In this document: positions 3,001 to 56,732 of the stretch, in pieces
Layout: every line of letters begins with the position of its first letter
Numbering within the stretch: the stretch's first letter is position 1
NCBI GenBank assembly: GCA_964507565.1
Contig: CAZDPV010000002.1
Span: forward strand, 24,879-88,878
DNA from: an uncultured Clostridium sp.
GTDB taxonomy: Bacteria; Bacillota; Clostridia; TANB77; CAG-508
DNA: 64,000 nt
Direction of reading: 5' to 3'
Translations under genes and position numbers: made by a program
The notes under the pieces: generated by a model
What the model saw: only the letters and a program-made list of their open reading frames with translations
Database searches by the model: none
What the model was told of the DNA's origin: nothing

Positions 3001-4755
3001 GATTTACTCAATAAAGAAACTAAAGTATCAGTAAAAGCTTACTATGATAGTGGAATAACTGGATATAATTTAGAACAAAATCACTTTGTAACATATCAAA
3101 AACCATATCTGTCTGGGGAAACCGTATACTATTATAAGATAGATGGTAAAAAACAATTTGTTGATACTCCAGATATACTAGGAAATATATATATAAGTAC
3201 AAGAACAGAAAACTCTTTGCAAATAGTTAATGCTATGACAACAAGTTTAACAACAACAATAACACTTGATATTACAAAAAACGGATTCACATATAATGGA
3301 AATGTTATTCTACCAAAACAAGTAAATGAGCAGGAAATCGTTTCAGAGGATGGCGATAACATTATTAAATTCGATGTAATAATAACAGGAATAACTCTAA
3401 AAGATAATAAGGGAAATCTAACAATATCATCAGAGCTAGACAACGTTAGTTTTGAAGCATCTCTTTTAACAAAAGAATCTGTTAAGGATGATTTGATATA
3501 TATAGAGATATATCAAACTGACGAAAATGGAAAAACACAATACTTAACTAATACTATTTCAAAGTTAACAAGTGATTTTAACAGTAAAATTACAATAGAT
3601 GGTTTAAAACCAAAAACATATTATTTTCTTAAATTTAGAGCAAATTTTGACACATCAGATGGTGTTTCATCAAAATACTTATATGATATAGATTACGAGG
3701 TAGAGGGGAAGCAATATTATTTTTCAACGCTTGCAAATGTTGGAATAACAAATATAAGTGTAAAATATAATCCAGTTGATTATGATAACAAAACAATTGA
3801 CATAACATACAACCTTGATAAAATAATGGGATATAAGAAGATAGCATATAAGATAGAAAAATATAATGAAGTTACAAAATTATATGAAGAAACAGGAATA
3901 AAAATATCAAACGATGTACTATTTAAAAATGAAATGACTAAAAAAATAGTATGCAACCCAACTGGAGCAGATACAAAAATTATATTCGGAAAAAAATACA
4001 AAATTATAATTGCACCATTAACAGAATATACATATAATGGAACTACTACAACCTTAGATCTAGGCACAAAAGAATATGAATTTGAGCTTCAAGAACTTTC
4101 TAATCCAATTATTGCTTTAAAAGGTTCAAGATCGGGAGAAAGTAGTGCATATTTTAAAGTAACAATATATGATAATGATAAAATAATAGTTGGTGGAAAT
4201 TATTCTGTACAGATTTTTGAAAATGGTTCTATAGATATTACACCAGAGGAGTACGTAAATCAAAAATATTCAATAAATACATTTAATAAAACATTCTCTA
4301 TCTCAAACGTTAATAAAACAAGTAAATATAAAATACTAATAAAATGCAAAATAGATAAAAAGAACAATGGAAATGAAATAACAGACTTTGAAAAAAGTTA
4401 TGAATTACCATCTGTAAATGAATATGGAATTTCAGTAGGAAACGTTTCAACAGCAACAAACTTGAATGGTGGAATTTATAAAATTGATTTAATTTTTAAT
4501 AGTTCATACAAACTAAACGAAATAGACATGGTGAAATATTCAATTTATAATGTAAGCGGATATTCGCAAAGTAATGAGGAAAACTTTATACCAACTGAAA
4601 TAAATTCAGAAGATGGTGGTTTATACTATAAATTTACATTAAATAATAATATGAATGATTGTGATCAGGGAACTTATTATATTGAATTACAATTTTATAA
4701 AGATGGAAATTTAGTTGACGAAACAACAGTTGAACATGTTTATTTAAAAGAATAA
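1..4755 (+). CDS. Giant surface/secreted protein built from tandem FN3/Ig-like beta-sandwich modules (5' end lies outside the window)
   Basis: Frame 1 is open from nt 1, with no stop before the ATG at 175 used by the ORF track, so the gene is truncated by the window edge. It has at least 11 modules of about 90-110 aa, each with an FN3-like strand signature (SPNTEYTLEVES, ESNTEYTVELLN, RANETYKFSVYT, KPKTYYFLKFRA, KTSKYKILIKC). There is no C-terminal TM or LPXTG. The stop is TAA at 4753-4755. Confidence 0.8.
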   Translation, partial: KKEINGYAEIEYEDNEIVNIYNQEITYQTISSKAYLEIPNGIKINLSNKVISQNGENKMSLNNMVIDSEDNVTITDLEELQKKENTISENSTNENNTSLGTGSVTQGPTTVINNQTSTSITAGNVGDSKTDSEETVDETKTVIAPTYKVTKFETTSTGIKATIAVNDEESLLTSDSKIKVIDGETGKLVYENTESLGVYSIDVDISTLSPNTEYTLEVESSYTVDSISYTKNFVYKVFKTLPIGLGITKDVYTSDSLGINVVFESESDVKEVEVALLNNKGETIKTQKVYNKGKTENTSNVEFTQLESNTEYTVELLNAIYNGQVISNGFDITKNCKTLKEKPQISNPEFEIDKRNGKFNLDLKNSIDKDSGIQEYRFEVYDTRQSAAKTPIMSLSTNGTQTSLKVDNDKIFRNVAYIFKVIAIFNDNEKIHEYESEFSDIMQLDGTEFPTISFEKKEVTYERIEGTIIVEDKGNAISLKNGNKFTVIYNDSVGGKNESFTSEGSLKIPVSVNNLRANETYKFSVYTTVDLQDGNDPIKECFIGSVIVKTELPKNLVANFKTNKQNTKSTFDVTFQLAKENQSQTDLESQTLTGVTFSIYPGQTTDGKLPTGTPKRTVKIVDSDVSAYSSEIKTNYYDQSKSINPTFFGSQNNDFKDKYYTLVVSKAYDYTDYQNALPIINNVYTIETNGYMPDLPGDVNDALQVNVIRNRDSSSIREELDASTIVGYTVKASYDNSDYYAKKIIYKAYNAISKALISTKEVSMDKTLEIPSVTFDVKDGIDSASTDDENLTRGNTYYFTYEAELDLNGDGEAETHYPYNSNGQAVTLKSKDVIPEKQEAKIEMFPIISTKNTYSFGIKIIDIDKSINTNTASAKIDDKLVDTEVLDKTSNQYGQITFKNLSKGNLEIYITQKTINTEDSKKIYLIYQYFEGIKSISDIKFKKSLESNKLLITLIDSGEQINNIIAVKVTLESTDGTVKIEKDMLKPTNNIISINLNDISDLLNKETKVSVKAYYDSGITGYNLEQNHFVTYQKPYLSGETVYYYKIDGKKQFVDTPDILGNIYISTRTENSLQIVNAMTTSLTTTITLDITKNGFTYNGNVILPKQVNEQEIVSEDGDNIIKFDVIITGITLKDNKGNLTISSELDNVSFEASLLTKESVKDDLIYIEIYQTDENGKTQYLTNTISKLTSDFNSKITIDGLKPKTYYFLKFRANFDTSDGVSSKYLYDIDYEVEGKQYYFSTLANVGITNISVKYNPVDYDNKTIDITYNLDKIMGYKKIAYKIEKYNEVTKLYEETGIKISNDVLFKNEMTKKIVCNPTGADTKIIFGKKYKIIIAPLTEYTYNGTTTTLDLGTKEYEFELQELSNPIIALKGSRSGESSAYFKVTIYDNDKIIVGGNYSVQIFENGSIDITPEEYVNQKYSINTFNKTFSISNVNKTSKYKILIKCKIDKKNNGNEITDFEKSYELPSVNEYGISVGNVSTATNLNGGIYKIDLIFNSSYKLNEIDMVKYSIYNVSGYSQSNEENFIPTEINSEDGGLYYKFTLNNNMNDCDQGTYYIELQFYKDGNLVDETTVEHVYLKE

Positions 4756-4775: not shown

Positions 4776-6445
<1,670 letters not shown>

Positions 6446-6492
6446 ATAGATAAAATATAAAAAGTCTAATGCTATTTTACAGGAGAAAAAAT

Positions 6493-7320
6493 ATGATAAA
6501 ACTAATTATACCAGCAATAATAATGGAATTCTTAATGTTTGGATTTTCTATATATATTTTTGATAATCTCTCAAAAAGGATAAATAACAGAGTAAAAAAA
6601 TATTTTATAGACAAACTTCAAGATTATAATTATTTAATTGAAGAAAAAGCTAAAGAGCTTGAAAATTTGAGAAATTTGGTAGATAATGAAAATAATAAAA
6701 TAAAAAAACTTCAAGAAACGCCAGAAAGCACATTCTCAAAAACTATAGAGAGCAAGTTAAAGAAAATGAAGAAATTTAAAGAGGGAAAAATCAAACTAGT
6801 AGAAGAAGAAGATATAATTTATGATATACCAACTCCTGCATATAGGGAAGAGTCATTCTTTAAAAATTATAAAGAGCTAAAAAAGAACTTTAACGTGGAT
6901 ACACAAAATGTATTAGAGAAATTTGTTAAGGAACATAAGAATACAAAACAAGAAGATGAAGCATATAAAATTCTTACAGAATTCAGGTCTAAATTTAATC
7001 AAAATACAATTTATGATTGTTTAACATTAAATTCTAATAATCAATACAATTTAATGAAAGAAGTAATGTCCTCAAAAGAAAAAAACACAATTAACTTTGA
7101 GGAAAAATTTATGCAGGACAAGAAATTTACAATATTAAAATTATTAAATTATGTTGACGAGCTGATAAAAAAATACGATCCAACAATATATGTATATGTC
7201 GGATCAGACAGTGTTGATTATAATTATATTGAAAAGAACATCAAGACATATTTTTATAAAAACATGTCCGAAGGAATAATTATAAACTATAAAGGAAAAA
7301 TGTATGACTATAGTATATAG
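6493..7320 (+). CDS. Peripheral-stalk-like protein: b-subunit-like N-terminal TM plus coiled coil, with a delta/OSCP-like C-terminal end (candidate b-delta fusion)
   Basis: I prefer the ATG at 6493, 7 nt after AGGAG (6481-6485); the ORF track starts at 6469 in the same frame. It has one N-terminal TM (IIPAIIMEFLMFGFSIYIF) followed by a long K/E-rich helix. The C-terminus EGIIINYKGKMYDYSI resembles by eye the OSCP/delta C-terminal pattern (GG-x-x-[VI]-x-x-G-x-x-[IV]-x-D-x-S). It occupies the atpF/atpH position between c and alpha. Confidence 0.55.
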   Translation: MIKLIIPAIIMEFLMFGFSIYIFDNLSKRINNRVKKYFIDKLQDYNYLIEEKAKELENLRNLVDNENNKIKKLQETPESTFSKTIESKLKKMKKFKEGKIKLVEEEDIIYDIPTPAYREESFFKNYKELKKNFNVDTQNVLEKFVKEHKNTKQEDEAYKILTEFRSKFNQNTIYDCLTLNSNNQYNLMKEVMSSKEKNTINFEEKFMQDKKFTILKLLNYVDELIKKYDPTIYVYVGSDSVDYNYIEKNIKTYFYKNMSEGIIINYKGKMYDYSI

Positions 7321-7346: not shown

Positions 7347-8685
7347 ATGGGTACACATATTGAGGATTTATTAAATAAAAAAATAGAGCAAATTAAGACA
7401 GAAGAAAATGTTTTTGATTCTGGAAATGTTACAAAAATAAAAGACTATATAATTGAAGTTTCCGGATTGGAAAACGTTAGGTTTTTTGAAAAAGTAATAA
7501 TCCAAGGTAAGGGAATGGGATATGTAAATCAAATAAATGAAAATTCCGTAATAATTGCATTGGTAAAGCAATATGCCCCAATCCAAATTGGAGATATTGT
7601 AAATTCAACAGGAGAATTATTTAAAGCAATATTTGCAAAAGAAGCAATGGGAAGAATAACAGATTTATTTGGCGTCGATTTATTAACAGGAAGAGCTTTT
7701 GAAAACTTTGAATATATAAATATAGAAAACAAAACTACTCCAATAATGGACAGGCGAGAAGTAAACAGACCTCTTAAAACTGGAATATCAGGAATAGACT
7801 TAATATACCCAATAGGAAAAGGACAAAGACAGTTAATAATAGGCGATAAAAAAACTGGAAAAACGCAAATAGCTCTTGACATAATTGCAAATCAAGCAAA
7901 TGTAAGGCGAGAACAAGGAGACAATATAGTTTGCATATACATAGCGGTAGGAAAAACAAAAAAAGAGATTAAGAATATTTATAATGAACTACTTAGAAGA
8001 AATGCATTATCATATACAATGATTTGTGCTGCAACTAATGATGATAAGCCACCTGTATTAAGTCTTATTCCTTATGTAGGATTATCTATTGCAGAAGAAT
8101 ATATGAAAATGAAAAAGGATGTAATTGTAATAATAGATGATTTAAAAAAACATGCACAAGCATATAGAGAGATTAGCTTAATATCGAATAAAACACCAGG
8201 AAGAGACGCATATCCATCTGATATTTTCTATACGCATGCTCGTTTGTTAGAGAAAGGTTGCCAATATAAAGACGGAGGTTCAATTACAATTTTACCTATA
8301 ATGGAAACAAAAGGTGGAGATATAACAGATTATATATCAACCAATATTATTTCAATAACTGATGGACAGCTTGTATTATCAGAAAAAAACTTTAGCGCAG
8401 GATTTAAACCGGCAATTGACTATGGAGTATCAGTATCTAGATTAGGTGGAGCAGTTCAAGAGGAAAGTGTAAAGAAATTAGGAGCAACAGTAAGAAGAAA
8501 ATTCTTAAGCTACTTGGAAATGAAAGAAGTATATGAGCTTGCGAATATGGATGAAATGAGTCCAGAATTAAGACAAAAAATGAAAGAAGGAGAAGCTATA
8601 CAAGAAGCATTAAAACAAGATAAATTTTCTCCTCTGTCAAATGCGGAAATAATTGATAAATTTAATATGTTAGGTGAGGATGCAA

Positions 8686-8696
<11 letters not shown>
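7347..8696 (+). CDS. atpA: F1 ATPase alpha-subunit-like protein (449 aa, short C-terminal domain)
   Basis: Contains RPLKTGISGIDLIYPIGKGQRQLIIGDKKTGKT (alpha Walker A, GD-x-x-TGKT). Also has ITILPIMETKGGDITDYISTNIISITDGQ and FKPAIDYGVSVSRLGG, the region containing the alpha arginine finger. The N-terminal beta-barrel is present. It is about 50 aa shorter than typical alpha subunits of about 500 aa. Confidence 0.9.
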
Positions 8697-10828
<2,132 letters not shown>

Positions 10829-10865: not shown

Positions 10866-11159
<294 letters not shown>

Positions 11160-11174
11160 AAGAGGAGAGAATTT

Positions 11175-11744
11175 ATGATACAAACAATAATGTATAATGT
11201 TAGTAAAAGTGCAATTCCAATGTTAATATACTTAGGAATAATAGTATTTACTGGATTCCTCATAAATTTCTCAACAAAAAAATTTGATATTCATAAAAAA
11301 ACAGTTATGTTTGGAGGAATGTTAGTTAAACTTCATAGAAGGCAAATAATCTCAATAACTGCAGTTATGATAAGAACATTTCTAATAATATATGCATCTA
11401 TAAACTTTAAAGAAAATTTGGTATTGTACTTTACGATGATTATTATGGCAGATATAGTTTATATTTTTATGAATCCCAAAAAAATAGTATTTGAAATTAT
11501 AAATACTTCTGCACAGGGAATTTTAATATATATAATAAGTCTACTAAGCACATATCGAGTTGAAATTAGTGATGAACTATACGTAAAACTAATGCAAACA
11601 TTGCTTATTATTTTTATAATTGTGTATGCAATATACTTTTTATTTAAAAATTTTGAAGAAATAATATCAAAAAAATATAAAATAACAAAAAGAGAGAAAA
11701 AAGACCAAGAATTGAAGGGAGAATTAAATGAAAAAAATAGCTAA
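11175..11744 (+). CDS. Polytopic (about 5 TM) membrane protein of unknown family; speculative minimal stator or a-subunit substitute
   Basis: GAGGAG RBS. Hydrophobic segments include AIPMLIYLGIIVFTGFLINF, IISITAVMIRTFLIIYASI, LVLYFTMIIMADIVYIFM, AQGILIYIISLLSTY and LMQTLLIIFIIVYAIYFLF. There is a buried Arg in TM2 and an Asp in TM3. IRTFLIIYAS loosely resembles the a-subunit LRLFGNMYAG helix. The C-terminal tail is K/E-rich. Confidence 0.6.
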   Translation: MIQTIMYNVSKSAIPMLIYLGIIVFTGFLINFSTKKFDIHKKTVMFGGMLVKLHRRQIISITAVMIRTFLIIYASINFKENLVLYFTMIIMADIVYIFMNPKKIVFEIINTSAQGILIYIISLLSTYRVEISDELYVKLMQTLLIIFIIVYAIYFLFKNFEEIISKKYKITKREKKDQELKGELNEKNS

Positions 11745-12459
11745 TAAAACATCACAAAATGCTTTAATAAAAGATATTGTCATAAAAATAGTATTAGTAT
11801 TATTACTTCTAGATGTAATATTTATTGCAATATACTATATCAAACAGCTAAATACAACAGAAGTAGAAAATCATAGCTTCTATCAATACTTAGGTGGTCA
11901 AAAGCAAAGTTATGCAGGAAGTATTAAAATAAGCAAAAACGGTGATATAACAGAATTAAAATGTAACGATATTGAAATCGAATTAGACTCAACACCAGTG
12001 TATTATTCAGATATAGAAAATACCGCAATATTACCAGAACAAATGTCAATTATTTATCCAAAAGAAAATGGAAAAACATATAGAACAACAAGATTCTCTA
12101 TATGCTCAATAAAAGACAAATCTGTGTATATTGAAATGAGTAAAAGCGAAAAATTAGTGCAAAATGCAATTCTATATGATGGAGATAATTTGTATTTTTT
12201 TATAGAGCAAACAAAGCTAATGATTGGTAATAAAGAGTATGATATTTCACCATTATCTTATGTATATGCAAAATACAATGAATATGTAGAAATTTATGAT
12301 AAGAAAAGTGATACATTTCAAGTGGTAGAATGTGCAAAAAAGAATGTAACAGCAAGCAATGGCTCATATATAATAGACTTAAACACAGGCAGTTTAAAAA
12401 ATGGAGAAAAAGAACAGCTATTACTTAAAAAGTTTAATTCATTAGAAATTTTAAAATAG
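11728..12459 (+). CDS. Single-pass membrane protein, unknown function
   Basis: ATG follows AAGGGAG and overlaps the previous gene by 17 nt. The N-terminal TM is IVIKIVLVLLLLDVIFIAIYYI, followed by an extracytoplasmic domain of about 200 aa. Confidence 0.6.
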   Translation: MKKIANKTSQNALIKDIVIKIVLVLLLLDVIFIAIYYIKQLNTTEVENHSFYQYLGGQKQSYAGSIKISKNGDITELKCNDIEIELDSTPVYYSDIENTAILPEQMSIIYPKENGKTYRTTRFSICSIKDKSVYIEMSKSEKLVQNAILYDGDNLYFFIEQTKLMIGNKEYDISPLSYVYAKYNEYVEIYDKKSDTFQVVECAKKNVTASNGSYIIDLNTGSLKNGEKEQLLLKKFNSLEILK

Positions 12460-12505: not shown

Positions 12506-15500
12506 ATGAATAAAAATGAAATAAAAGATAAACCAAAATTACATAAAAAAGGTAAAATAGCAAATCTAATAAGAAGCAATATACCAATGTTTCTAATAGT
12601 ATCAATTGGGCTACTAATAATATTATTAGTGGCACTTTATTATATATTTATGCACTTTGCTCCAGTATATGTAATCGAAAAAAGTGGATATGCAGTAAAG
12701 GATAAATTAATATATCAAGGATTACAGACATCAAATTTTAGTAGTGCAGAAAAACGAGTTAGCCTATTAGAAATTTCAGAAGAAGATACTCTATACAAAA
12801 AAATAAACAGTTATTATATTGGTGGAAATAGTAAAAAAGCTATAAACTTAAATTATCCAATATATTTAGAAGATTCAGCAATGCTAAATTTAAGTAAAGA
12901 AATGAATTTGATCACAAATTCTTTTGAAGAGGTAGGAGGATATCCAAATTTTACAATAATAGATGGAAAGATGTATAATGAAAAAGATTTAACAAGAGCA
13001 GATAGCAATGAATACATATTTCTTAAAAATAAAGAGAATTTGTTTGTAAATATTAAAGAAATATATATAAAGACTTCTACAAATGAATATAAAATACCAA
13101 TAAATAGTATTATAAATTTTAACAAAGAATTTGTTAGTTATTATAAATTACAAGACAAAGATAACTTAGAATATAGTGTAATACAAGATATAGACTTAAG
13201 TAGTATAATTACAATAAATAATGAAAGTGATAATTATGAAAATATATTAAAGAAACTTAAAATTATACAAGAAGAAAAGAAACAGGATGTAATTGTAAAT
13301 GAAATAGAAGAACCTGTTAAAAATGAAACACCCAAAAATGAAATAACGGAAAATAAAGAAGAAGAAAAAACGGACGATGAAGAAAAAAAATATATTGCTC
13401 CAGAAGTAAAATGTACAGACTTTACTGCAAATGTTTATACTGCAAAGACGAATTTATATATAAGTGACCCAAGCGGAACGATTCAAAAAGCAGTAGAATT
13501 TACAATATACAAAGATGGTAAGGTATATCAAAGAGCTCAAACTTTAGTAGGAGGAAACATTTTAATAAGTGGACTAATGCCAGATTCAAAATATTCAATA
13601 ACAGGAGAGTACACATACAAAAAAGAATCAGGAGAAAAAGTAATAAAAACATTTTATGAAGGTACGTTTAATACCAATAGATTAGAAACACTAGAAACTA
13701 TAAATTTGGAATTTGAGAATGGAGAAATATTTCCAACAAAGATTGAAATAAAAGATTTAAAAATAAATAATGATTTATATAATGACGAAGTTTTATATGG
13801 AATATCAAAAATAGTATTGGATACAGGAAAATCTAAATATAATTTAAGAGCTTCACAAATAAAAGAACTACTAAATGGAAATAAAATAACATATCAAACC
13901 GACCAAAATATAACAAGTAATAGTAATATAAAATATAAATTCCATATATATGATAAATTTGAAAATGAATTATCAGTCTCAAATAGTGAAGGGGAAACTA
14001 TAACTTCAAAAAGAGCTCCAACTTTAGTATTAAATGCAAAAAGTCAAAATATAACAGAAGTAAATGTAGGAATTAAAGTTAATAACAAGGATAACGTTAT
14101 AATAGAAAACTATAAATATGCTATATACGATGGGGAAGGGAAAGAAGTAGAAAGCCAAAACTTAAAATCATTACCAAGCGAAATTAAGATAAGAGATCTA
14201 GACCCTAATAAATTCTATGTAATAAAAATATTTGGAGATTATGATTTGGAAAACAATCAGGGAAAAACATATAATGTTGAACTGGGGGAAGCAAAATTTA
14301 CGACGTTACCAATATCTTCACTAGGATATGTATACATTGATGATAACTTAAAAGATATAAAAAGTAACCAAACAACAATTTCTATAAAAATAAATACTGA
14401 AAAAACTGATACTAGATTGGTAGAAATATTATCACAATTTAATATAAAAATAAAATCAAACAAAGATAATAAAGATACTCAAGACTATAACTTATCAAAC
14501 GAAGACCTTCTCAAAATAAAGCAGGGAAATGAATTTGAATACATATTCCAAAATCTAAATTCTAACACTAAATATTCTATTGAAGTAGAAACGAGGGCAA
14601 AACAAGGAGCTTCAACGGAAAAAGTAGGTGTAAATTTCGAGATAACGGACTTTATTACACTTAAGGAATCTGCTAGTGTACAAATTAAAAATCAATTTGT
14701 TACAGGAGAAATAATAGATTTTGATGCAAAAATAGTAGATAAAGATGAAGCTGTTTTAAATAATTCTGTACGTATGGAATTAAGGGACGAAATGGATAAG
14801 CTACTATCAATAGAAGATATGAAAACAAATGAAGAATATAAAAGAGAGACATTCAATAAATTGAGTAGTGGAAAAACATATAAAATATTATTTTACGCTG
14901 ATGAGTATAATGAGGGAAGTAAAGATGATACATACAAATCAAACTATCTTCTTAAAAAAATACAAGTTGTTACTGAGGAGGGGATAAGTGGAAATTTAAG
15001 ACTAAGTGAACTTAATAAAAAAGAAAACGGAAAAAATCTAATTGATATGGCTTCAGAAGTAAAATGGTATGTATATCCAAATTTTGACACAGGAGACTGG
15101 TATGGAAAAGAGTATAATGAAGTAACAGAAACATTGTCAATTGGAGGACATGGAAACAGTAGAAGATGTGTATATGACTTAACAGATTATTCAGGACAAA
15201 CTGTAACGATGTCTTTTAAGGCAAAGCGTATTACTAAGAACTCAAGCACTCTATATATTCAAAATGCAAGAACAGATAAAAATAGAACAATAGTTAGTGA
15301 CATAAATGAAACAGAATGGAAAAGTTATTCATATACCATAAAACTTGATGAAAGTGGATACCTTGGCTTTTATGTACAAGGTGGTGATGGAGTTCAAATA
15401 AAAGAATTACAGGTTGAACTGGGATCTAAGCAAACTCCATATCAAAAATATAAATATAATATGAGAACTAGATTACAAGTAAATTTAATTGACAAAAGAA

Positions 15501-18500
15501 ATGAAATAGAGTCGAACGAATATTTCATAAAAGAATATAAAAACAATGAGCTTATTGAAACTAAAAACTTTCAAGAAATAGATGAGAGCAACATAGTAAA
15601 AGATGTAATAAAAGAATTTTGGGTAGATGAAGAAGGAGAATACAAGTTTCAGTTAGTAATAAAGATAAGAAACAGAGAATATATACTAGATACACAAGAA
15701 ATTAAAACTGAAAAAGGAAAAGAAATAAAAGGAATTTATCAATATTCGGATTTTAAGTTGATCCAGCCAAATGGGAACTATACAGTATTTTGTGATTTAG
15801 ATTTTACAGTAGAAAGTAAACAATCATGTTCTTTTGGATATACATGGGACGAAAGATTTTCTTTTAATGGAAGCATAGATTTTAACGGACACAAAATTAT
15901 AAAAGATGCGTATGGAAATAATAGAAGTTGGCCTATATTCCCTAGAATAGGAAAAAACGGATATCTAAAAAATATAGTTATGGATGTAAGCCTAAGAAAT
16001 AATGTAGAAGTAAGAGAATTCTATGGATTATTTTATGTAAACTCTGGAACAATAGAAAATCTAGAAGTTAATTTATTAGAAAGTACAAAATATGGAAATA
16101 TACAAACTCATCTAATAGGTTTAACAAACTATGGAACAATAAATAAATTTGTTATAAATTCAAAGGTACCATACTATGGAAATTGTAGAGTAACACTGGG
16201 ATTGTATAACAATTATGGGACAATTAAAAATGGATACTTATATGGCAGTCCAATTGATGTATTTGGAGATATACCAGAAGAAATTGGATATAGATATGCA
16301 GCTGGACTGGTATTACAATCATATGGAAGTGGACAAATATCAAATGTTTATAGTTTAATAAATGTTAATGTGGAAGACCAAACTACTACTGGAAGAGAAA
16401 ATGTATCTAATATAGTAGAACATAATTACGCACACATAGATAATATTTACTCAGTAGGAACCGGAAATACAATTGAAATGTCACATGGACCATCAGTTGC
16501 ATATAATAATGGAAAAATAAATAATAACTATTACTTTGCAGATAAAGTATTTAATAACTCATATAATAATAAAACTACCAAACTTGCATTATTAGATGAA
16601 CAATTTCAAAATCAAATACTAAATAGTGAAGATGCATTTAATATAGATGATCTTATTTCAAGAGGATATTATCCACAAGTTGTTATGCCAGATTGTATGC
16701 CACGACAGGAATATATCAACCTACCTAAAGTAGATGATGCAGACTTACCAGATATAATTTCAACTAACATAATACAACAAGGCTCAGATACGGTAAAAGT
16801 TAGATTTAGTATAAATAATCCATCTGGAGAAAAAATTCAAAACATAAGTGTACAAAACCTACAAGTAAGAATAGAATCACAAAATTATGCAGATGGAAAA
16901 AGTGAAGTAATAGCAACACTACTAGAACCTACAAAGTATGTATCAACATATAATGTTCTAAGTATAACTACAAAAGGTGCATTCAATATACCATATACTA
17001 GAAAATATGCAAGCAATGAAAGAATAATAAATGTGGATTTATATAGGCAGATAAATTCTATATCAGATTGGAACAATATATCAAACCATACAGATGAAAA
17101 CTTTATGCTACTAACAGATTTAGATTTTAAAAATGAAGGAAGTTCTATATCAATAACTAAAACCTATTATGGAAAATTAGAAGGACAGGGTCACACCATT
17201 AAAAATATAAAGTCAAATAGAGGACTTCTTGCAACATTTACTGGACAAATAAATAATTTATTTATTGAAAATTATTATAATGAATCAGCATCAACAGACT
17301 ATACTGGAGTAATAGAATATTTAAATGGCGGAATAGTAAATAATGTACACATTAAAGGATTAGAGATAGACGTAAATCAAAAAAGAATAGGTGGAACAAT
17401 TACGTGTGGAGGCCTTGTTGGATATACTAATAGTGGCTCAGTAATAAAAAACAGCTCAATTGTAGATGCAACTATTATATCAAATGCAAAACTAGATAAT
17501 GCAAGATTTGGCGGATTAGTAGGATTATCAGACCAACTAGTAATAGATAACTGTTTTGCACAAAATGTAGATATTTCAGCTAATAAAAGTATTTATTATG
17601 AAGGAGTAGGAGGACTAATAGGAAGAGGAACTCCTTGTTACATAACTAATTGCTACTCGACAGGTAAAATTTTTTCAGATGGAGATAGATGTGGAGGAAT
17701 TATCGGAAACAGTAATACAAGCGGAACCCTAACAAATTGCTATAGCTTAGTAAATGTAGATAGTTATGGAGAATATATAGGAGGAATTATTGGATATAAT
17801 CTTACACCAACTTCATGCTTATCTATTGGAAATATTTATACTAGACAAGATACAAAAAACATATCTAGAACATCTGGATATCAAATAAGTAAAAAGATAA
17901 ACTATGCTTATGAGAATCAACTAATAAATGGATATATAAATGAAAATGAATTAGATTCAAATGTACTAAGTAGAGACGAAATATTTAAAAAATCCAATTA
18001 TTTAAGTGAGCTTAAATGGGATGATAATTACAATTATGATGGATTATCTAATTATATACTTCCAAAACTATATTACACAGATAAAAAAGAACTACTACCT
18101 AATCAAGAAGATAATACAATTTCAATAGACAGAGAAATAAAAGTAGAAGAGGTTCAAGCAGAGAAAACAGACGTTAATACTGTTGGTGTAAGAGTTGTAG
18201 TAAATAATCCAGGAAACAAACAAATTAAAAATGTAATAATTGATGACATGAATTCAATAATCTCAAAATCAATTTTTGATAATGGAAAAACTTATATAGA
18301 CTTAGTAACAACGCCTAAAAGATATTATGACAGCTATAAAATCTCAAGCATTGTATATGATGACAATGGAGAAGAAAAATCAAAAGAAACAGAAAATAGA
18401 ATTGATGTTAAATTTTATAAAGAAATATATAACTACAATGACTGGCAATCAATAGAAAAAGATACATTTCAAAATTATAAACTTATGAATGACATTGACT

Positions 18501-21500
18501 TTGAAGGAAAAAGTGAAGTAAATTATAATGTTACAATGGCTAGATTCGAAGCGGTAGGTGATAATAAAACATTAAAAAATATTACATTAGCAGAAATTGA
18601 GCAACAATCTGGACTAATAAACAAAATTTCCATAAATTTAGAAAATATAAATTTCGAAAATATTAACATTACATCTACTAAGTCTGGAAATGCAGTAGGA
18701 ATAATTAGAAAAGCAAGTGGAAATGTAACAAACATCAATTTTAAAGACATAACAATAACCGCAAAAAAAGTTTCTTATGTGGGATGCTTTGCTGTGGTAG
18801 ATTCCGTAACGAAAGATGTTGGACTAGAACACATTACATGCTATGGAATACACTACGTTGGTGGATATGCAGGTTCTGTCTCGAATTTAGGAAAAAATAT
18901 AAATGGAAACAACATCACGATTATTTCAACAGGAAATTATGTCGGTGGAATAGTTGGACTAAATGGTAATGGAATAGAGCCAAATCATTATAACATAAAT
19001 ATAAGTAATTCAAATGTTACAGGATATGATGTTGTTGGTGGACTTGCTGGACAATCTCCTAATATAATGGGTGCGAAAGCTACTTTTGTAACAGTAAATG
19101 GACATAGCAATGTTGGAGGAATGTATGGATATATATATGACTCTTGGGATGGATATAGCAATATTGTAACGGATTCAAATATAGCAGGTTCAGGTTCAAA
19201 TATTGGTGGATTAGCAGGACAATCAACAGACTGGTGGGGAGGAATTAGAACTGTTAAAAACAGTACTGTTACGGGTAAAAATTCAGGATCAAACAACGTG
19301 GGAGGAATCTTTGGATACTCAACAGGAGCATGTAATGCTATGAATACAATAGATGTAACTGTTACAACATTAGGAAGCAATGTAGGTGGAATTATAGGAA
19401 ACTGGAATAGATCGAATTCAACATCTGGATACTGGAGTACAGATAATGTAACGCTAACAGGATATTCAAATGTAGGAGGTTTGGTTGGTTATCATAAAGC
19501 AGGAAGAATAAATTATGCATATAGTAATGCAAAAGTAACAGCAACAGGGTATGCAGCAGGAGGAATATCTGGATATTTGGCCAATACTGGAATGACAGCA
19601 ATAACAAATGATACAGCAATAGTACAAGTTTATGTAGCTAAATCTACTGTAATTGCTCCAATAAATGCAGGAGGAATATTTGGAAAAGTTGAAACAGACT
19701 TTTATATGCCAGTATCTTTATATACTAAAATATTTGTAGAAGCCAACGTAAAATCAAATTATGACACGACATCTTCAATGATTGTGGGTTCAGACAAGAC
19801 AATGAATAGTCAATTATCAAAAATATACATCTACCAATACAGCAAGATAAATGAAAATTACATTACAAAATATAACGACAATATAGAAGCAAATAATTTC
19901 TTAAATGAAAGTAATTTAAAGCTAGCAAAAACATATTCTTCAACACTAGGATTTAATACAGGGGTATTTAATACGAATATGTTATCAAGTAATATTTATC
20001 CAACAATAAAATATGGTAGAGATGGAAATACAATGGAGCAAAGAGGAATTTCATTGCCAATGGATCCAGTAGACGTAGTTATAAATTTAGAAGAAATACA
20101 AACAATGGATTTGAAAGAAGATGAATATCCACTTATGGTAGCATCTAATTTCTTAATTAACTTAAATACTGAAAACGACCAAAAAGTGAATAACTTACCA
20201 ACGTATAGTGCATATCCAATAAGTGTAAATGAGTTTAATATAGATTTTAGTAAAATAGACGAAAATGCTTTCTTTGAATGCTATGTAAATGGTAGAAGTG
20301 CTGTAAAACAATATATAAAAAATAAAACATATACATTTAAATATGACTTTAAAACTAATATTGAAATCAATATAGGAAAAGATGATGTGGTAAAAACATT
20401 AACAATTATACCAAGTGATATAAATAAACGAACAAGTTTAAAGGGAGAAAGCATTGCATATATAAATGAAAATAAATTATATGTAAATAATGAGGAAAAA
20501 AGTGAACAATCTGTAAACTTATATGATTCCCAAGCTTTAACGAACAATGGAAAGATATACAACATATTAACTGGTGAGTATACAAATAGCAATGAAAAAA
20601 CAAATACTACAAGCATAGATGAAGAGAGCCAAAACAATAATGTTCAAAACACATTAGCATTAGAAGAAACTAAAGCGTTAGAAAAATACCAATATGATGG
20701 AAATAATATTGAAAGCTTTGGAACGTACAGCATAGTAAATGGCAATAGAAAGTCACAAATTTATATAGTAAAAAACAACAAGTTATCAGTGATAGATAGC
20801 TCATTAGATATCAAAATTTCAAACCAAGTAATTGATTTCTACAATGGAAAAGAATATCAATCAGTACTAAAAAAAGATGGAAAGATAAACAATTTAAAAG
20901 AAAGTCTAAAATATCCTAAAAATTTTAATAATAGTACAATAAAAGAAATAACAATGAATCAAGAAGAAGAAAGAAAAGAAGTAATGGTACTATATGAAAA
21001 CGGAAAGGTCATAGTATTCAATTACATGGATGGAAATGAAAAATACAATAATAATGTGAAAGAAGAAGTAAGTTTATTAGACTTTTTAAAAGAAAATTTG
21101 TTTAATGCAAATATGATATATGAAGACTTATCAGAAGAATATGAACAATGCAAACAAGTACAAGAAAAGCTAGAAGAAACTCCAATAAGTGAGCTAAACA
21201 TAAATTCGAGTTCAAATAATAGTTCATCTAATGCAACATCAAGTGGATCAAACAATAATAAAACAAATAAATACACTACAATGTACAATGCAACAAGCAA
21301 AAAATATGAAGTATATAATGAAAATGAACTATTAACAAGCAAAGAAGAGGTACCAGAATCAGAAACTACTAAGATTGAAAAAACAGAATTATTATCTAAA
21401 TATTATCTAAGTGGAATAAAAGAAAAATCAAATTCTAATAAAAATAATGGTACGGTTTGGATAATATCAACAATAATTGGAATTTTAATAATTCTCATAA

Positions 21501-21562
21501 TATTATACAAAGTAAACAACAGAAAAAGAATAGCAATTAAAAAAAATACAAATAAAAAATAA
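12506..21562 (+). CDS. Giant (3018 aa) envelope protein with TM helices at both termini, FN3-like repeats, a CBM-like jelly-roll and GLUG-motif beta-helix arrays
   Basis: CAGGAG RBS. N-terminal TM (IPMFLIVSIGLLIILLVALYYIF, about nt 12584-12652). FN3-like signatures include MPDSKYSITGEY, LDPNKFYVIKIFGDY, LNSNTKYSIEVETRA and SSGKTYKILFYA. A CBM-like segment spans about 15060-15450. F-x-G-x-(L/F)-x-G-x-G-H-x-I-x-N modules are present (FNGSIDFNGHKIIKD, YYGKLEGQGHTIKNI). About 10 consecutive x-V-G-G-(L/I)-x-G repeats span about 18850-19690. An S/N-rich linker precedes the C-terminal TM VWIISTIIGILIILIILY (21455-21508), which is followed by a basic tail. There is no LPXTG and no HEXXH. Confidence 0.85.
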   Translation: MNKNEIKDKPKLHKKGKIANLIRSNIPMFLIVSIGLLIILLVALYYIFMHFAPVYVIEKSGYAVKDKLIYQGLQTSNFSSAEKRVSLLEISEEDTLYKKINSYYIGGNSKKAINLNYPIYLEDSAMLNLSKEMNLITNSFEEVGGYPNFTIIDGKMYNEKDLTRADSNEYIFLKNKENLFVNIKEIYIKTSTNEYKIPINSIINFNKEFVSYYKLQDKDNLEYSVIQDIDLSSIITINNESDNYENILKKLKIIQEEKKQDVIVNEIEEPVKNETPKNEITENKEEEKTDDEEKKYIAPEVKCTDFTANVYTAKTNLYISDPSGTIQKAVEFTIYKDGKVYQRAQTLVGGNILISGLMPDSKYSITGEYTYKKESGEKVIKTFYEGTFNTNRLETLETINLEFENGEIFPTKIEIKDLKINNDLYNDEVLYGISKIVLDTGKSKYNLRASQIKELLNGNKITYQTDQNITSNSNIKYKFHIYDKFENELSVSNSEGETITSKRAPTLVLNAKSQNITEVNVGIKVNNKDNVIIENYKYAIYDGEGKEVESQNLKSLPSEIKIRDLDPNKFYVIKIFGDYDLENNQGKTYNVELGEAKFTTLPISSLGYVYIDDNLKDIKSNQTTISIKINTEKTDTRLVEILSQFNIKIKSNKDNKDTQDYNLSNEDLLKIKQGNEFEYIFQNLNSNTKYSIEVETRAKQGASTEKVGVNFEITDFITLKESASVQIKNQFVTGEIIDFDAKIVDKDEAVLNNSVRMELRDEMDKLLSIEDMKTNEEYKRETFNKLSSGKTYKILFYADEYNEGSKDDTYKSNYLLKKIQVVTEEGISGNLRLSELNKKENGKNLIDMASEVKWYVYPNFDTGDWYGKEYNEVTETLSIGGHGNSRRCVYDLTDYSGQTVTMSFKAKRITKNSSTLYIQNARTDKNRTIVSDINETEWKSYSYTIKLDESGYLGFYVQGGDGVQIKELQVELGSKQTPYQKYKYNMRTRLQVNLIDKRNEIESNEYFIKEYKNNELIETKNFQEIDESNIVKDVIKEFWVDEEGEYKFQLVIKIRNREYILDTQEIKTEKGKEIKGIYQYSDFKLIQPNGNYTVFCDLDFTVESKQSCSFGYTWDERFSFNGSIDFNGHKIIKDAYGNNRSWPIFPRIGKNGYLKNIVMDVSLRNNVEVREFYGLFYVNSGTIENLEVNLLESTKYGNIQTHLIGLTNYGTINKFVINSKVPYYGNCRVTLGLYNNYGTIKNGYLYGSPIDVFGDIPEEIGYRYAAGLVLQSYGSGQISNVYSLINVNVEDQTTTGRENVSNIVEHNYAHIDNIYSVGTGNTIEMSHGPSVAYNNGKINNNYYFADKVFNNSYNNKTTKLALLDEQFQNQILNSEDAFNIDDLISRGYYPQVVMPDCMPRQEYINLPKVDDADLPDIISTNIIQQGSDTVKVRFSINNPSGEKIQNISVQNLQVRIESQNYADGKSEVIATLLEPTKYVSTYNVLSITTKGAFNIPYTRKYASNERIINVDLYRQINSISDWNNISNHTDENFMLLTDLDFKNEGSSISITKTYYGKLEGQGHTIKNIKSNRGLLATFTGQINNLFIENYYNESASTDYTGVIEYLNGGIVNNVHIKGLEIDVNQKRIGGTITCGGLVGYTNSGSVIKNSSIVDATIISNAKLDNARFGGLVGLSDQLVIDNCFAQNVDISANKSIYYEGVGGLIGRGTPCYITNCYSTGKIFSDGDRCGGIIGNSNTSGTLTNCYSLVNVDSYGEYIGGIIGYNLTPTSCLSIGNIYTRQDTKNISRTSGYQISKKINYAYENQLINGYINENELDSNVLSRDEIFKKSNYLSELKWDDNYNYDGLSNYILPKLYYTDKKELLPNQEDNTISIDREIKVEEVQAEKTDVNTVGVRVVVNNPGNKQIKNVIIDDMNSIISKSIFDNGKTYIDLVTTPKRYYDSYKISSIVYDDNGEEKSKETENRIDVKFYKEIYNYNDWQSIEKDTFQNYKLMNDIDFEGKSEVNYNVTMARFEAVGDNKTLKNITLAEIEQQSGLINKISINLENINFENINITSTKSGNAVGIIRKASGNVTNINFKDITITAKKVSYVGCFAVVDSVTKDVGLEHITCYGIHYVGGYAGSVSNLGKNINGNNITIISTGNYVGGIVGLNGNGIEPNHYNINISNSNVTGYDVVGGLAGQSPNIMGAKATFVTVNGHSNVGGMYGYIYDSWDGYSNIVTDSNIAGSGSNIGGLAGQSTDWWGGIRTVKNSTVTGKNSGSNNVGGIFGYSTGACNAMNTIDVTVTTLGSNVGGIIGNWNRSNSTSGYWSTDNVTLTGYSNVGGLVGYHKAGRINYAYSNAKVTATGYAAGGISGYLANTGMTAITNDTAIVQVYVAKSTVIAPINAGGIFGKVETDFYMPVSLYTKIFVEANVKSNYDTTSSMIVGSDKTMNSQLSKIYIYQYSKINENYITKYNDNIEANNFLNESNLKLAKTYSSTLGFNTGVFNTNMLSSNIYPTIKYGRDGNTMEQRGISLPMDPVDVVINLEEIQTMDLKEDEYPLMVASNFLINLNTENDQKVNNLPTYSAYPISVNEFNIDFSKIDENAFFECYVNGRSAVKQYIKNKTYTFKYDFKTNIEINIGKDDVVKTLTIIPSDINKRTSLKGESIAYINENKLYVNNEEKSEQSVNLYDSQALTNNGKIYNILTGEYTNSNEKTNTTSIDEESQNNNVQNTLALEETKALEKYQYDGNNIESFGTYSIVNGNRKSQIYIVKNNKLSVIDSSLDIKISNQVIDFYNGKEYQSVLKKDGKINNLKESLKYPKNFNNSTIKEITMNQEEERKEVMVLYENGKVIVFNYMDGNEKYNNNVKEEVSLLDFLKENLFNANMIYEDLSEEYEQCKQVQEKLEETPISELNINSSSNNSSSNATSSGSNNNKTNKYTTMYNATSKKYEVYNENELLTSKEEVPESETTKIEKTELLSKYYLSGIKEKSNSNKNNGTVWIISTIIGILIILIILYKVNNRKRIAIKKNTNKK

Positions 21563-21579: not shown

Positions 21580-21608
21580 TTGACATAAGCAACAAAAAAA
21601 TGTATAAT
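21580..21608 (+). promoter_or_regulatory. Sigma-A type promoter of the thrS leader
   Basis: TTGACA (21580-21585), a 17-nt spacer, then TATAAT (21603-21608). This is the first clear promoter after the long upstream gene array. Confidence 0.65.
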
Positions 21609-21614: not shown

Positions 21615-21856
21615 AGTTTAAGAAAGCTAATGGAAGGAAAAGTAAAGTAAAAGTTACTTATAAGAGAAAATTAGTCGTGGGCTGAAAGCTAATTTAAGCA
21701 AACATACTTGAAAAACTACCTTCAAAAAGTGCTAGTGAGTAAGCTAGACGTTTAAGCTACGTTATAAGCTATAAAAATAAGTGAAAAATCCGGGTGGAAC
21801 CGTACTAAATAAAGTACCCCAGAACATATCTTTTTAGATATGTTCTGTTTTTTATT
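21615..21856 (+). promoter_or_regulatory. T-box riboswitch leader (threonine specifier) with terminator/antiterminator
   Basis: Stem I elements are present (AGAGA box in taagagaaaa; gggctgaaag GNUGA-like). The specifier region gaaaaACUACCuuc contains Thr codons ACU/ACC. A T-box sequence aatccGGGTGGaACCGtac lies at about 21788-21806. An intrinsic terminator follows: agaacatatc (21821-21830) pairs with gatatgttct (21837-21846), then a T-run. Confidence 0.8.
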
Positions 21857-50874: not shown

Positions 50875-50980
50875 CAAAAAAATGAAATTAAGGAGGCACA
50901 GTATGTTATTTTTGATGATATAAAATATCAACTAAAATAAAAGCCATATACTTGTGCCTTATTTAATGGAAAGGGGTAAG

Positions 50981-53820: not shown

Positions 53821-53826
53821 TTTAAT

Positions 53827-56699: not shown

Positions 56700-56732
56700 A
56701 TATAATAGATAATAGATTGGTTGGAGGAAAAA

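What the first reader, a model, noticed from the sequence alone, without database searches (positions are those of the whole stretch)
12506..21562. A 3018-aa protein is anchored by TM helices at both ends and carries FN3, CBM-like and long GLUG beta-helix arrays
Seen: the layout runs as follows.
- A basic cytoplasmic N-terminus and TM helix (about nt 12584-12652).
- A region of about 250 aa of unknown fold.
- Several FN3-like modules.
- A jelly-roll/CBM-like segment (about 15060-15450; WYVYPNFDTGDWYGKEYNE...GFYVQGGDGVQIKELQVELG).
- Three modules of the F-x-G-x-x-x-G-x-G-H-x-I-x-N type.
- About ten consecutive x-VGG(L/I)xG repeats (about 18850-19690), typical of the GLUG motif found in large streptococcal surface proteases and adhesins.
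- An S/N-rich linker, a second TM (21455-21508) and a basic tail (KVNNRKRIAIKKNTNKK).
I found no LPXTG and no HEXXH.
Inference: with both termini in the cytoplasm, about 2900 aa would form a huge extracellular loop. That topology is well suited to being pulled or rotated from inside, and is unusual for Gram-positive adhesins.
Basis: partly seen in the sequence, partly recalled or inferred. Interest (0 to 1): 0.7.

Follow-up and report, generated by a model that had tools for sequence, protein, structure and literature searches.

The report
Giant double-anchored adhesin beside rotary ATPase
This is a real 3018-residue surface protein of an uncultured gut Clostridia bacterium, predicted to be held in the membrane at both ends, and in most related lineages its gene sits at the end of a cluster for an odd ATP-synthase-like motor that has lost its ion-binding site, hinting at an ATP-driven surface machine so far described only in wall-less mycoplasmas.

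Summary
ORF 12506-21562 encodes a 3018-aa protein. It has one N-terminal and one C-terminal hydrophobic helix, five to six FN3-like modules, a weakly CBM4-like module and three homologous GLUG beta-helix modules. There is no HEXXH and no LPXTG. 112 of 113 full-length homologues from uncultured gut Clostridia keep both helices.

The N helix looks like an uncleaved anchor. Its basic tail is 9-55 aa, a Pro is conserved just after it, and a confidently modelled beta domain with no PDB fold match starts within three residues.

New here: the gene closes a conserved 11-gene block. The block holds two other surface proteins, a c-like subunit, a b-like stalk protein, F1 alpha, gamma and beta, a putative epsilon, a small multi-helix membrane protein and a 243-aa anchored protein. 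The c-like subunit lacks the ion-binding carboxylate in all 32 variants seen. A giant-family gene follows the ATPase in 19 of 23 lineages, down to 26% identity. Other paralogues lie elsewhere.

Best reading: a binding protein that serves as effector or client of a non-pumping F1-like motor, analogous to mycoplasma Type 2/3 systems. Coupling through the cytoplasmic tails is unlikely because they are short and unconserved. The function is inferred, not shown.

The parts
12506..21562 (+). Giant surface protein gene, 3018 aa
12506..12583 (+). Basic N-terminal tail (aa 1-26), predicted cytoplasmic. In the family it is 9-55 aa long and not conserved.
12584..12661 (+). N-terminal membrane helix (aa 27-52). 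Its outer half, IYYxFLxYxP, is conserved. Predicted to be an uncleaved signal-anchor.
12653..13273 (+). [not shown]
13274..13390 (+). E/K-rich linker of variable length (aa 257-295)
13391..14974 (+). Five FN3-like modules (aa 296-823), of two alternating types
14981..15424 (+). CBM4-like jelly-roll candidate (aa 826-973). Weak support only.
15425..15715 (+). FN3/Ig-like module (aa 974-1070), assigned by position and length. It scored below 50% against every other module in the profile comparison.
15728..16705 (+). Beta-helix module 1 (aa 1075-1400), without canonical GLUG turns
16727..17044 (+). Ig-like spacer I1 (aa 1408-1513)
17045..18085 (+). Beta-helix module 2 (aa 1514-1860) with 5 GLUG turns. 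Homologous to the N-terminal beta-helix of S. pneumoniae IgA1 protease (E 4e-19).
18107..18421 (+). Ig-like spacer I2 (aa 1868-1972)
18422..19945 (+). Beta-helix module 3 (aa 1973-2480) with 9-10 GLUG turns
20189..21061 (+). [not shown]
21191..21430 (+). S/N-rich linker, then a conserved juxtamembrane segment of about 50 aa (invariant Y2923, Y2927, Y2937, E2953, I2957)
21449..21508 (+). C-terminal membrane helix (aa 2982-3001)
21509..21559 (+). Basic C-terminal tail (aa 3002-3018), predicted cytoplasmic
1..4755 (+). g1: a 1754-aa FN3-rich surface protein. Homologues have an N-terminal helix and no C-terminal helix. The 5' end lies outside the window. First gene of the conserved block.
4776..6182 (+). 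g2: a 468-aa N-anchored protein. Its N-domain is related to that of g1 (hhalign 93%).
6197..6445 (+). c-like subunit (82 aa, ATP-synt_C). The ion-binding Glu is replaced by Ala.
6469..7320 (+). b283: N-terminal helix, coiled coil and a C-terminal domain. Candidate peripheral stalk; no detectable homology to subunits b or delta.
7347..8696 (+). F1 alpha-like subunit, below the curated cut-offs for canonical alpha
8674..9477 (+). F1 gamma-like subunit, far below the curated cut-off
9470..10828 (+). F1 beta-like subunit. Walker [16 protein letters not shown] and DELSEQD are present.
10866..11159 (+). 97-aa protein in the epsilon position. Not verified by sequence search.
11175..11744 (+). tm189: a membrane protein of 4-5 helices with a conserved R/K in helix 2. 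Candidate stator; no detectable similarity to subunit a.
11728..12459 (+). x243: an N-anchored protein with an ectodomain of about 190 aa. In the block it always lies just upstream of the giant's position.

Best explanation
Shown.
- The ORF is a real gene for a giant cell-surface protein of an uncultured, walled, spore-forming gut Clostridia lineage.
- It has one hydrophobic helix at each end. Positive charge sits on the terminal side of both helices, so about 2900 residues are predicted to lie outside as one loop.
- Reading outward from the N helix: a membrane-hugging beta domain with no PDB fold match, an acidic linker, a stalk of five FN3-like modules, a weakly CBM4-like module, then three tandem GLUG beta-helix modules separated by Ig-like spacers. 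The chain returns through an FN3-like plus propeller-like region, an S/N-rich linker and a conserved juxtamembrane segment to the C helix.
- The beta-helix modules are homologous to the N-terminal beta-helix of streptococcal IgA1 protease, but no protease domain or zinc motif is present.
- The gene is the last of a conserved 11-gene block: g1, g2, c-like, b-like, alpha, gamma, beta, epsilon-position, tm189, x243, giant. The c-like subunit of this block has lost the ion-binding carboxylate in every variant seen.

Inferred.
- The protein is a ligand-binding (adhesive) protein, not an enzyme.
- The F1-like head hydrolyses ATP and turns a c-ring that cannot carry ions. The output is therefore mechanical.
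- That output is passed, within the membrane or through the membrane-proximal ectodomains of x243, g2 and g1, to the giant protein and its scattered paralogues. They would act as effectors or clients, for example by changing conformation, releasing ligand or moving.
- This parallels the way mycoplasma Type 2 and Type 3 F1-like ATPases serve the gliding legs and the MIB-MIP antibody-cleaving pair.
For: Gene and architecture.

Family-wide double anchor and charge bias.

Uncleaved N anchor.
- Tail up to 55 aa and conserved Y[A/S]P after the helix.
- N-domain model pLDDT 92, with its first strand at model residues 3-7, about three residues after the helix.
- The N-domain always lies directly after the helix, in 388 clusters.

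No LPXTG or HEXXH. No known C-terminal sorting model matches.

Walled sporeformer: PBP, PcsB-like and GH25 genes, SpoIVA, Mur ligase and Ddl next to paralogues.

ATPase block.

Loss of the carboxylate.
- The Glu of the A. woodii c subunit aligns to Ala.
- 32 distinct c sequences from about 75 loci have no acidic residue in the membrane core of helix 2.

Conserved linkage.
- 27 of 34 loci with enough sequence carry a giant-family gene after x243.
- That is 19 of 23 lineages at 85% gamma identity, down to 43% gamma and 26% giant identity.
- No terminator-like site lies between the ATPase genes and the giant. A perfect promoter appears only after its stop codon.

Mycoplasma precedent: F1-like ATPase clusters lie next to surface effector genes, with scattered paralogues.
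Against: - Six of eight sampled family members lie among housekeeping genes with no ATPase nearby, often as tandem pairs or trios.
- One clade and two other lineages keep the ATPase block without a downstream giant.
- Both cytoplasmic tails are unconserved, so no obvious docking site exists.
- No physical interaction, ATPase activity or rotation has been tested.
- tm189, b283 and the 97-aa protein have no detectable homology to subunits a, b/delta or epsilon. The rotary architecture is therefore assumed, not shown.
- Topology rests on hydrophobicity and charge rules, not on a dedicated predictor or experiment.
- Whether genomes that hold only scattered paralogues also hold the ATPase block could not be checked.
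Confidence: 0.5

Rival explanations
1. Ordinary multi-copy adhesin. The protein is a self-sufficient, membrane-anchored binding protein used for attachment in the gut. Its position next to the ATPase genes reflects shared regulation or history, not a mechanical or functional coupling.
For: - The architecture (FN3, CBM-like, GLUG beta-helix) is typical of bacterial adhesins.
- The family is multi-copy. Most sampled copies lie away from the ATPase, next to AbiE or PDDEXK-type mobile genes, which suggests a variable surface repertoire.
- Some lineages keep the ATPase without a downstream giant.
- The tails are unconserved.
Against: Adjacency survives from 71% down to 43% gamma identity and 26% giant identity, in 19 of 23 lineages. 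That is hard to explain without selection. The block holds three further anchored surface proteins and an ATPase that cannot pump ions. Such an ATPase needs some non-bioenergetic output.
Confidence: 0.28
2. Dedicated export or assembly motor. The F1-like ATPase and its membrane partners insert, translocate or fold the very large ectodomains of g1 and the giant family, much as the F1-related FliI/FliJ ATPase serves type III export. The giant would be cargo rather than a mechanical effector.
For: - The giants and g1 lack typical cleavable signal peptides, and their ectodomains are 1700-4300 aa.
- Alpha and beta score strongly against FliI/SctN models, as all F1 subunits do.
- Scattered paralogues would be further cargo.
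Against: No export gate or channel homologue is seen in the block. A c-like ring together with gamma points to rotation rather than threading. A signal-anchor plus the Sec system can in principle handle such proteins.
Confidence: 0.12
3. Not double-anchored in the mature form. Either the N helix is a long signal peptide removed after export, or the C-terminal helix plus basic tail is a sorting signal cut by an unrecognised sortase-like enzyme. The result would be a singly anchored or wall-bound adhesin.
For: - A C-terminal helix plus basic tail is the generic shape of sorting signals.
- A small residue (usually G) is semi-conserved just before the C helix.
- An invariant G-Y-A at aa 61-63 could formally fit a -3/-1 cleavage rule.
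Against: - No LPXTG-like motif. No NCBIfam C-terminal sorting model matches at E up to 1.
- G-Y-A lies inside a strand of the confidently folded N-domain.
- Pro is conserved directly after the helix. The N tail reaches 55 aa and the hydrophobic stretch is about 25 aa.
- A conserved folded-looking segment, not a wall spacer, precedes the C helix.
Confidence: 0.12

Closest known systems
Mycoplasma Type 3 F1-like X0 ATPase with MIB-MIP (PMC3369863, PMC12994834)
   Same: - Extra F1-type alpha, beta, gamma and epsilon genes are clustered with membrane proteins of unknown function.
- They lie directly next to genes for surface ligand-binding proteins, whose paralogues are often scattered elsewhere. 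Adjacency is seen in about 85% of species there and about 83% of lineages here.
- The proposed role is ATP-driven conformational work across the membrane.
   Different: - The host here is a walled, spore-forming Clostridia lineage, not a Mollicute.
- Gene order is c, b-like, alpha, gamma, beta, epsilon-position, as in true F1Fo operons.
- A c-like 2-helix subunit is kept, without its carboxylate, in place of the 12-helix Protein 1. There is no homologue of Protein 5.
- Alpha and beta score below the MSC_0619 and MSC_0618 cut-offs and closer to canonical F1.
- The surface partners are unrelated giant FN3/GLUG proteins.
Mycoplasma mobile gliding machinery (Type 2 / G1-ATPase with Gli349, Gli521, Gli123; PMC8406192, PMC11864180)
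   Same: An F1-like ATPase is thought to drive very large membrane-anchored surface proteins (leg and crank). The surface proteins are in the 1000-4700 aa class, each with a terminal membrane helix (size and anchoring from my own knowledge).
   Different: No sequence relation between the surface proteins. The Gli genes are not next to the ATPase. The beta subunit here lacks the extra N-terminal dimerisation domain (452 aa). There is no evidence of motility in this lineage.
Streptococcal M26 IgA1 metalloprotease (ZmpA family; PDB 6xja, 6xjb, 7jgj, 7uvl; PMC7695701)
   Same: The GLUG beta-helix modules are homologous to the protease's N-terminal beta-helix domain (E 4e-19). Both are large Gram-positive surface proteins.
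   Different: No HEXXH, and no match to the middle or C-terminal catalytic domains. Three beta-helix modules instead of one. A different anchoring mode.
Giant C-terminally membrane-anchored staphylococcal proteins Ebh/Embp (from my own knowledge, not tested)
   Same: A very large repetitive wall-spanning surface protein, retained by a C-terminal membrane helix and charged tail rather than by LPXTG.
   Different: Those proteins have a cleaved signal peptide and unrelated repeat types. They have no N-terminal anchor and no ATPase neighbourhood.
Canonical bacterial F1Fo ATP synthase
   Same: The alpha-gamma-beta-epsilon gene order, the c-like hairpin with its GRNPE loop, and the catalytic motifs in beta.
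   Different: - The c subunit lacks the essential carboxylate.
- No recognisable a, b or delta subunit.
- Alpha, gamma and c fall below the curated cut-offs.
- Four anchored surface-protein genes are embedded in the block.

Membership tests
GLUG-motif beta-helix proteins (Pfam PF07581) | Repeated GLUG turns scoring above the Pfam gathering threshold | tested here: met
   34.2 bits for the whole protein and 41.2 bits for module 2, against a cut-off of 20.5. 14-15 xGG[LI]xG turns. 8 of 16 homologues also hit.
M26 IgA1 metalloprotease | HEXXH zinc site and the middle and C-terminal catalytic domains | tested here: not met
   No HEXXH. The family profile aligns only to chain residues 115-361, the N-terminal beta-helix.
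M26 IgA1 metalloprotease | N-terminal beta-helix domain | tested here: met
   E 4.2e-19 to 6xja, 6xjb and 7jgj; E 4.9e-17 to 7uvl. The three modules are homologous to each other.
Sortase-anchored LPXTG surface proteins | LPXTG-type motif before the C-terminal helix and basic tail | tested here: not met
   No [LSNIVPA]PxT[GNAS] anywhere in the protein. No sorting-domain model hits the last 100 aa at E up to 1. Helix plus basic tail are present.
Sortase-anchored LPXTG surface proteins | Cleavable N-terminal signal peptide | tested here: inconclusive
   The heuristics argue against cleavage: long basic tail, helix of about 25 aa, conserved Pro after it, and a folded domain starting at once. No SignalP or DeepTMHMM run and no proteomics were available.
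Fibronectin type III domain | Pfam fn3 at or above the gathering score | tested here: inconclusive
   [not shown]
Carbohydrate-binding module (CBM4/9-like jelly roll) | Significant match to a CBM family profile or structure | tested here: inconclusive
   Only 1gui (the CBM4 module of T. maritima laminarinase 16A) at E 0.009 over about 50 residues. No Pfam CBM in 16 members. No structure model was made.
Mycoplasma Type 2/3 F1-like X0 ATPase clusters | Extra alpha-, beta-, gamma- and epsilon-like genes clustered with novel membrane proteins | tested here: met
   The epsilon assignment is by position only.
Mycoplasma Type 2/3 F1-like X0 ATPase clusters | Seven-gene set with 12-helix Protein 1 and Protein 5 (signal peptide plus two C-terminal helices), in the order 1-2-gamma-epsilon-5-alpha-beta | tested here: not met
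   The order here is c, b-like, alpha, gamma, beta, epsilon-position, tm189, x243. There is no 12-helix protein (definition).
Mycoplasma Type 2/3 F1-like X0 ATPase clusters | Alpha and beta reach the NCBIfam cut-offs of the MSC_0619/MSC_0618 or MMOB1660/MMOB1670 families | tested here: not met
   Alpha scores 302 against a cut-off of 520, and 380 against 600. Beta scores 412 against 570, and 387 against 850.
Canonical F1Fo ATP synthase | c subunit with a conserved membrane-embedded Asp/Glu | tested here: not met
   Ala stands at the aligned position. No acidic residue occurs in the membrane core of helix 2 in 32 distinct homologues. The c score is 35.7 against a cut-off of 71.
Canonical F1Fo ATP synthase | Subunits a, b and delta present | tested here: not met
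   No Pfam, NCBIfam or PDB-profile match for tm189 or b283.

The most novel reading that the evidence does not exclude
Walled gut Clostridia carry a rotary F1-like motor whose c-ring no longer binds ions. The motor would spend ATP to move or reset giant, doubly membrane-anchored GLUG/FN3 surface proteins. This would be a new class of ATP-driven cell-surface machine outside the Mollicutes. It arose independently from a true F1Fo operon. Its possible uses include surface motility, regulated adhesion and release, or shedding of host ligands such as secretory IgA; the beta-helix modules are homologous to those of IgA1 proteases.
Probability: 0.3. Interest if true: 0.9.

Novelty: new variant of a known kind. 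Interest (0 to 1): 0.75.

Why it matters
F1-like ATPases that do mechanical work on surface proteins are so far known only from mycoplasmas. [quoted passage not shown] How they pass force across the membrane is still unsolved.

This window shows an independently derived version in abundant but uncultured gut Clostridia. It keeps a c-type ring, has provably lost the ion site, and stays linked to giant surface proteins whose two membrane anchors offer a concrete handle for force transmission.

That gives a second, simpler system for asking how a rotary motor can drive extracellular proteins. It also assigns a testable role to a family of roughly 400 clusters of unannotated 3000-4000-aa proteins in human and animal gut metagenomes.

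Even if the coupling proves false, the N-in/C-in loop topology and the membrane-proximal domain with no PDB fold match are unusual for Gram-positive adhesins.

Tried and rejected
- Single-sequence search of the giant against PDB sequences found nothing. Only the family profile worked.
- Pfam on the excised N-domain, the CBM-like segment, beta-helix module 1 and the C-terminal region gave only noise. Pfam on 16 homologues added nothing beyond Glug and fn3.
- The afdb50 fold library was not available.
- Profiles of tm189, the 97-aa protein and b283 against PDB gave no subunit a, epsilon, b or delta match.
- Homology of the giant's N-domain to x243 or g2 is weak (hhalign 36-37%), so I do not claim it. 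g1 to g2 is 93%.
- I tried to test genome-level co-occurrence by matching contig lengths between giant and gamma hits. It worked for 5 contigs (91902, 187616, 27406, 24445, 55777), but only the best 120 gamma hits are listed, so absence could not be assessed.
- NCBIfam on the last 100 aa gave only a sub-threshold EssA hit. I rejected it as composition-driven.
- Rfam found no T-box before thrS at the gathering score.
- The terminator-like hairpin at 12610-12633 lies inside the helix-coding region. I dismissed it as chance; the number of terminator-like sites found equals the shuffle expectation.
- Source names gave no organism beyond 'Clostridia bacterium' or 'Clostridium sp.' MAGs.
- Literature searches found no description of this system outside mycoplasmas.

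Full report

The window is about 27% GC, with nearly all genes on the + strand. ORF 12506-21562 encodes 3018 aa. The identical protein is called on 7-8 independent metagenome and MAG contigs.

A hydrophobicity scan finds exactly two membrane-type segments, at aa 26-44 and aa 2982-3000. The first follows a 26-aa basic tail. The second precedes KVNNRKRIAIKKNTNKK.

- Pfam confirms Glug above its threshold, and fn3 at threshold.
- There are five xGG[LI]xG turns in aa 1634-1763 and nine to ten in aa 2119-2393.
- There is no HEXXH and no LPXTG-like motif.
- Profile-profile comparison of excised modules shows three homologous beta-helix modules: 99.9%, 97.7% and 89%.
- It also shows two homologous Ig-like spacers (96.7%) and an FN3-like array of two alternating types (95.5%, 94%, 87%).
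- The strict F-x-G-x-x-x-G-x-G-H-x-I-x-N motif is met once, at aa 1554. The other two modules carry looser versions.
- The CBM-like call is the weakest part. The only support is E 0.009 to the CBM4 of Thermotoga laminarinase 16A, over about 50 residues. No Pfam CBM model hits in 16 homologues.

**2. What the protein is**

More than 200 homologues score E <= 1e-5, and the best 120 listed (mostly 2800-3200 aa, 36-48% identical) all come from gut metagenomes or MAGs labelled only Clostridia or Clostridium sp.. Of 113 full-length members, 112 have both terminal helices. The N tail is 9-55 aa with a median net charge of +5 (minimum +2). The C tail is short and basic.

A profile of 26 members matches the N-terminal beta-helix of Streptococcus pneumoniae IgA1 protease at E 4e-19 (6xja, 6xjb, 7jgj). 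It also matches 7uvl and 3n6z, and nothing else in those enzymes. The domain definition comes from PMC7695701. The protein therefore shares a binding or gating module with M26 proteases but is not a protease.

**3. Topology**

Four points argue that the N helix is an uncleaved signal-anchor:
- The tail is long and variable.
- The hydrophobic stretch is about 25 aa.
- A Y-[A/S]-P lies immediately after it. Pro at +1 blocks type I signal peptidase; this is established knowledge, not tested here.
- The first strand of the N-domain begins about three residues after the helix and is confidently modelled.

At the C end no sortase-type motif exists. No NCBIfam sorting-domain model matches.

The organism is walled. 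A class A PBP with PASTA, PcsB-like M23 peptidases and a GH25 muramidase lie in the window. SpoIVA is present. Mur ligase and Ddl lie beside paralogues.

The N-in/C-in loop is therefore the best-supported topology. It still rests on rules, not on a dedicated predictor or an experiment.

**4. Surroundings**

Upstream, on the same strand with short gaps, lie:
- g1: 1754 aa, FN3-rich, with an N-terminal helix in homologues.
- g2: 468 aa, N-anchored. Its N-domain is related to that of g1 at 93%.
- An 82-aa ATP-synt_C protein.
- A 283-aa protein with an N-terminal helix and a coiled coil.
- F1 alpha, gamma and beta.
- A 97-aa protein in the epsilon position.
- A 189-aa protein with 4-5 helices.
- A 243-aa N-anchored protein.

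Against NCBI's curated models, alpha (430 against a cut-off of 554), gamma (67 against 194) and c (35.7 against 71) fall below the canonical cut-offs. Beta is just above (477 against 463). The mycoplasma F1-like and gliding families score lower than canonical F1 and below their own cut-offs.

The c-like protein aligns best to Acetobacterium woodii c subunits, with Ala at the position of the ion-binding Glu. Across about 75 loci and 32 distinct sequences, no acidic residue ever occurs in the membrane core of helix 2. The protein is nonetheless 62-88% conserved.

Beta keeps the Walker A motif, GERSREG and DELSEQD. tm189 has a conserved Arg/Lys in its second helix but no detectable similarity to subunit a. 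b283 and the 97-aa protein are likewise unassignable by sequence.

The simplest reading is an ATP-hydrolysing F1 head on a ring that cannot translocate ions.

**5. Is the giant part of that system?**

Scans of genome and metagenome collections with gamma profiles returned 95 related loci. The order g1, g2, c, b-like, alpha, gamma, beta, epsilon-position, tm189, x243 recurs in the loci long enough to show it. tm189 falls below detection in the most divergent loci.

Of 34 loci with at least 3 kb after x243, 27 carry a giant-family gene downstream, 17 of them within 300 nt. De-replicated at 85% gamma identity this is 19 of 23 lineages, with 3 lacking it and 1 mixed. It reaches down to 43% gamma and 26% giant identity.

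Where there is a gap, it holds a PD-(D/E)XK transposase-like gene. No terminator-like site separates the ATPase genes from the giant. A perfect TTGACA-17-TATAAT promoter appears only after its stop codon, ahead of thrS.

Against an exclusive link, six of eight sampled family members sit among housekeeping genes. They are often tandem pairs or trios, separated by AbiE-type genes.

This pattern is one linked copy plus scattered paralogues. It is the same pattern reported for MIB-MIP next to the mycoplasma Type 3 F1-like ATPase, where adjacency holds in 85% of species and scattering is frequent.

**6. Mechanism**

Shown:
- the domain architecture;
- the conserved double anchor;
- homology to the IgA1-protease beta-helix without a catalytic domain;
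- the conserved gene block;
- the loss of the c carboxylate.

Inferred:
- The protein binds a ligand; the CBM-like and beta-helix modules would sit at the apex of the loop.
- The F1-like enzyme turns its ring at the expense of ATP without moving ions.
- That motion acts on the membrane-embedded or membrane-proximal parts of the giant, x243, g1 and g2.

Both cytoplasmic tails are unconserved. The outer half of the N helix (IYYxFLxYxP), the N-domain and the C-terminal juxtamembrane segment are conserved. Any coupling is therefore more likely within or just outside the membrane than 'from inside' through the tails.

Rivals are an independent adhesin, a dedicated export or assembly ATPase, and processing that removes one anchor. 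They are weighed in the rival section.

**7. Comparison and novelty**

The system works like the mycoplasma Type 2 and Type 3 F1-like ATPase systems but is not a member of them. The gene set and order differ, a c-type subunit is kept, and the family cut-offs are not met. It is not a canonical F1Fo synthase, an M26 protease or an LPXTG adhesin.

Searches of the held literature found no description of such a cluster outside Mollicutes. Béven et al. state explicitly that there is none known.

I rate it a new variant of a known kind. Interest is high because it offers an independent, ring-bearing model for force transmission by F1-like motors. It also gives a first functional context to a large unannotated protein family of the gut microbiome.

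Noticed in passing
window 6197-6445 (+), and about 75 related loci (L003-L103): The ATP-synt_C-like 82-aa protein has Ala where the ion-binding Glu/Asp of c subunits sits. All 32 distinct homologues lack any acidic residue in the membrane core of helix 2, yet the protein is 62-88% conserved. This is an F-type rotor that cannot carry H+ or Na+.
   Followed up: yes
window 11175-11744 (+): The 189-aa protein of 4-5 helices (tm189) keeps an Arg or Lys inside its second helix in all 10 aligned homologues. This recalls the stator Arg of subunit a, but there is no detectable sequence similarity to any solved protein.
   Followed up: partly
window 1-4755 (+): A second giant surface protein (1754 aa; its start lies about 510 nt before the window) opens the block. 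It is FN3-rich, has an N-terminal helix only, and is found upstream of the ATPase genes in nearly all loci with enough upstream sequence. Its linkage looks at least as consistent as that of the GLUG giant, though I did not count it.
   Followed up: partly
L001, L002, L104, L105 (paralogue loci); L011, L012, L015: Giant-family paralogues occur as tandem pairs or trios, separated by AbiEi/AbiEii-type genes. PD-(D/E)XK transposase-like genes sit between x243 and the giant, or replace the giant, in some lineages. This suggests recombination and turnover of the surface repertoire.
   Followed up: partly
window 21580-21608 and 21820-21847 (+): A perfect sigma-70 consensus promoter (TTGACA-17-TATAAT) lies directly after the giant's stop codon. 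A 12-bp hairpin with a T-run lies just before thrS (21899). This looks like an attenuator leader, but Rfam's T-box model did not reach its gathering score.
   Followed up: partly
window 39007-39190 (+); 53745-54087 (+): A 6S RNA gene (90.7 bits) and a cluster of three tRNA genes.
   Followed up: no
window 49675-50874 and 50954-52189 (+): Two adjacent PcsB-like genes (coiled coil plus M23 peptidase). Two more 399-aa ORFs follow, at 52250-53449 and 56721-57920; the second of these has no Pfam match. They are possible paralogous cell-division hydrolases.
   Followed up: no
window 25113-27311 (+): A 732-aa ORF with no Pfam match at E up to 0.001. It is conserved at the same position in the sister contigs L006 and L007.
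   Followed up: no
L018 6677-13828: In a MAG labelled Erysipelotrichaceae, the ATPase block (gamma 51% identical) is followed by an N-anchored protein of more than 2383 aa that is only 25-30% identical to the giant. The association therefore extends to very divergent surface proteins.
   Followed up: partly
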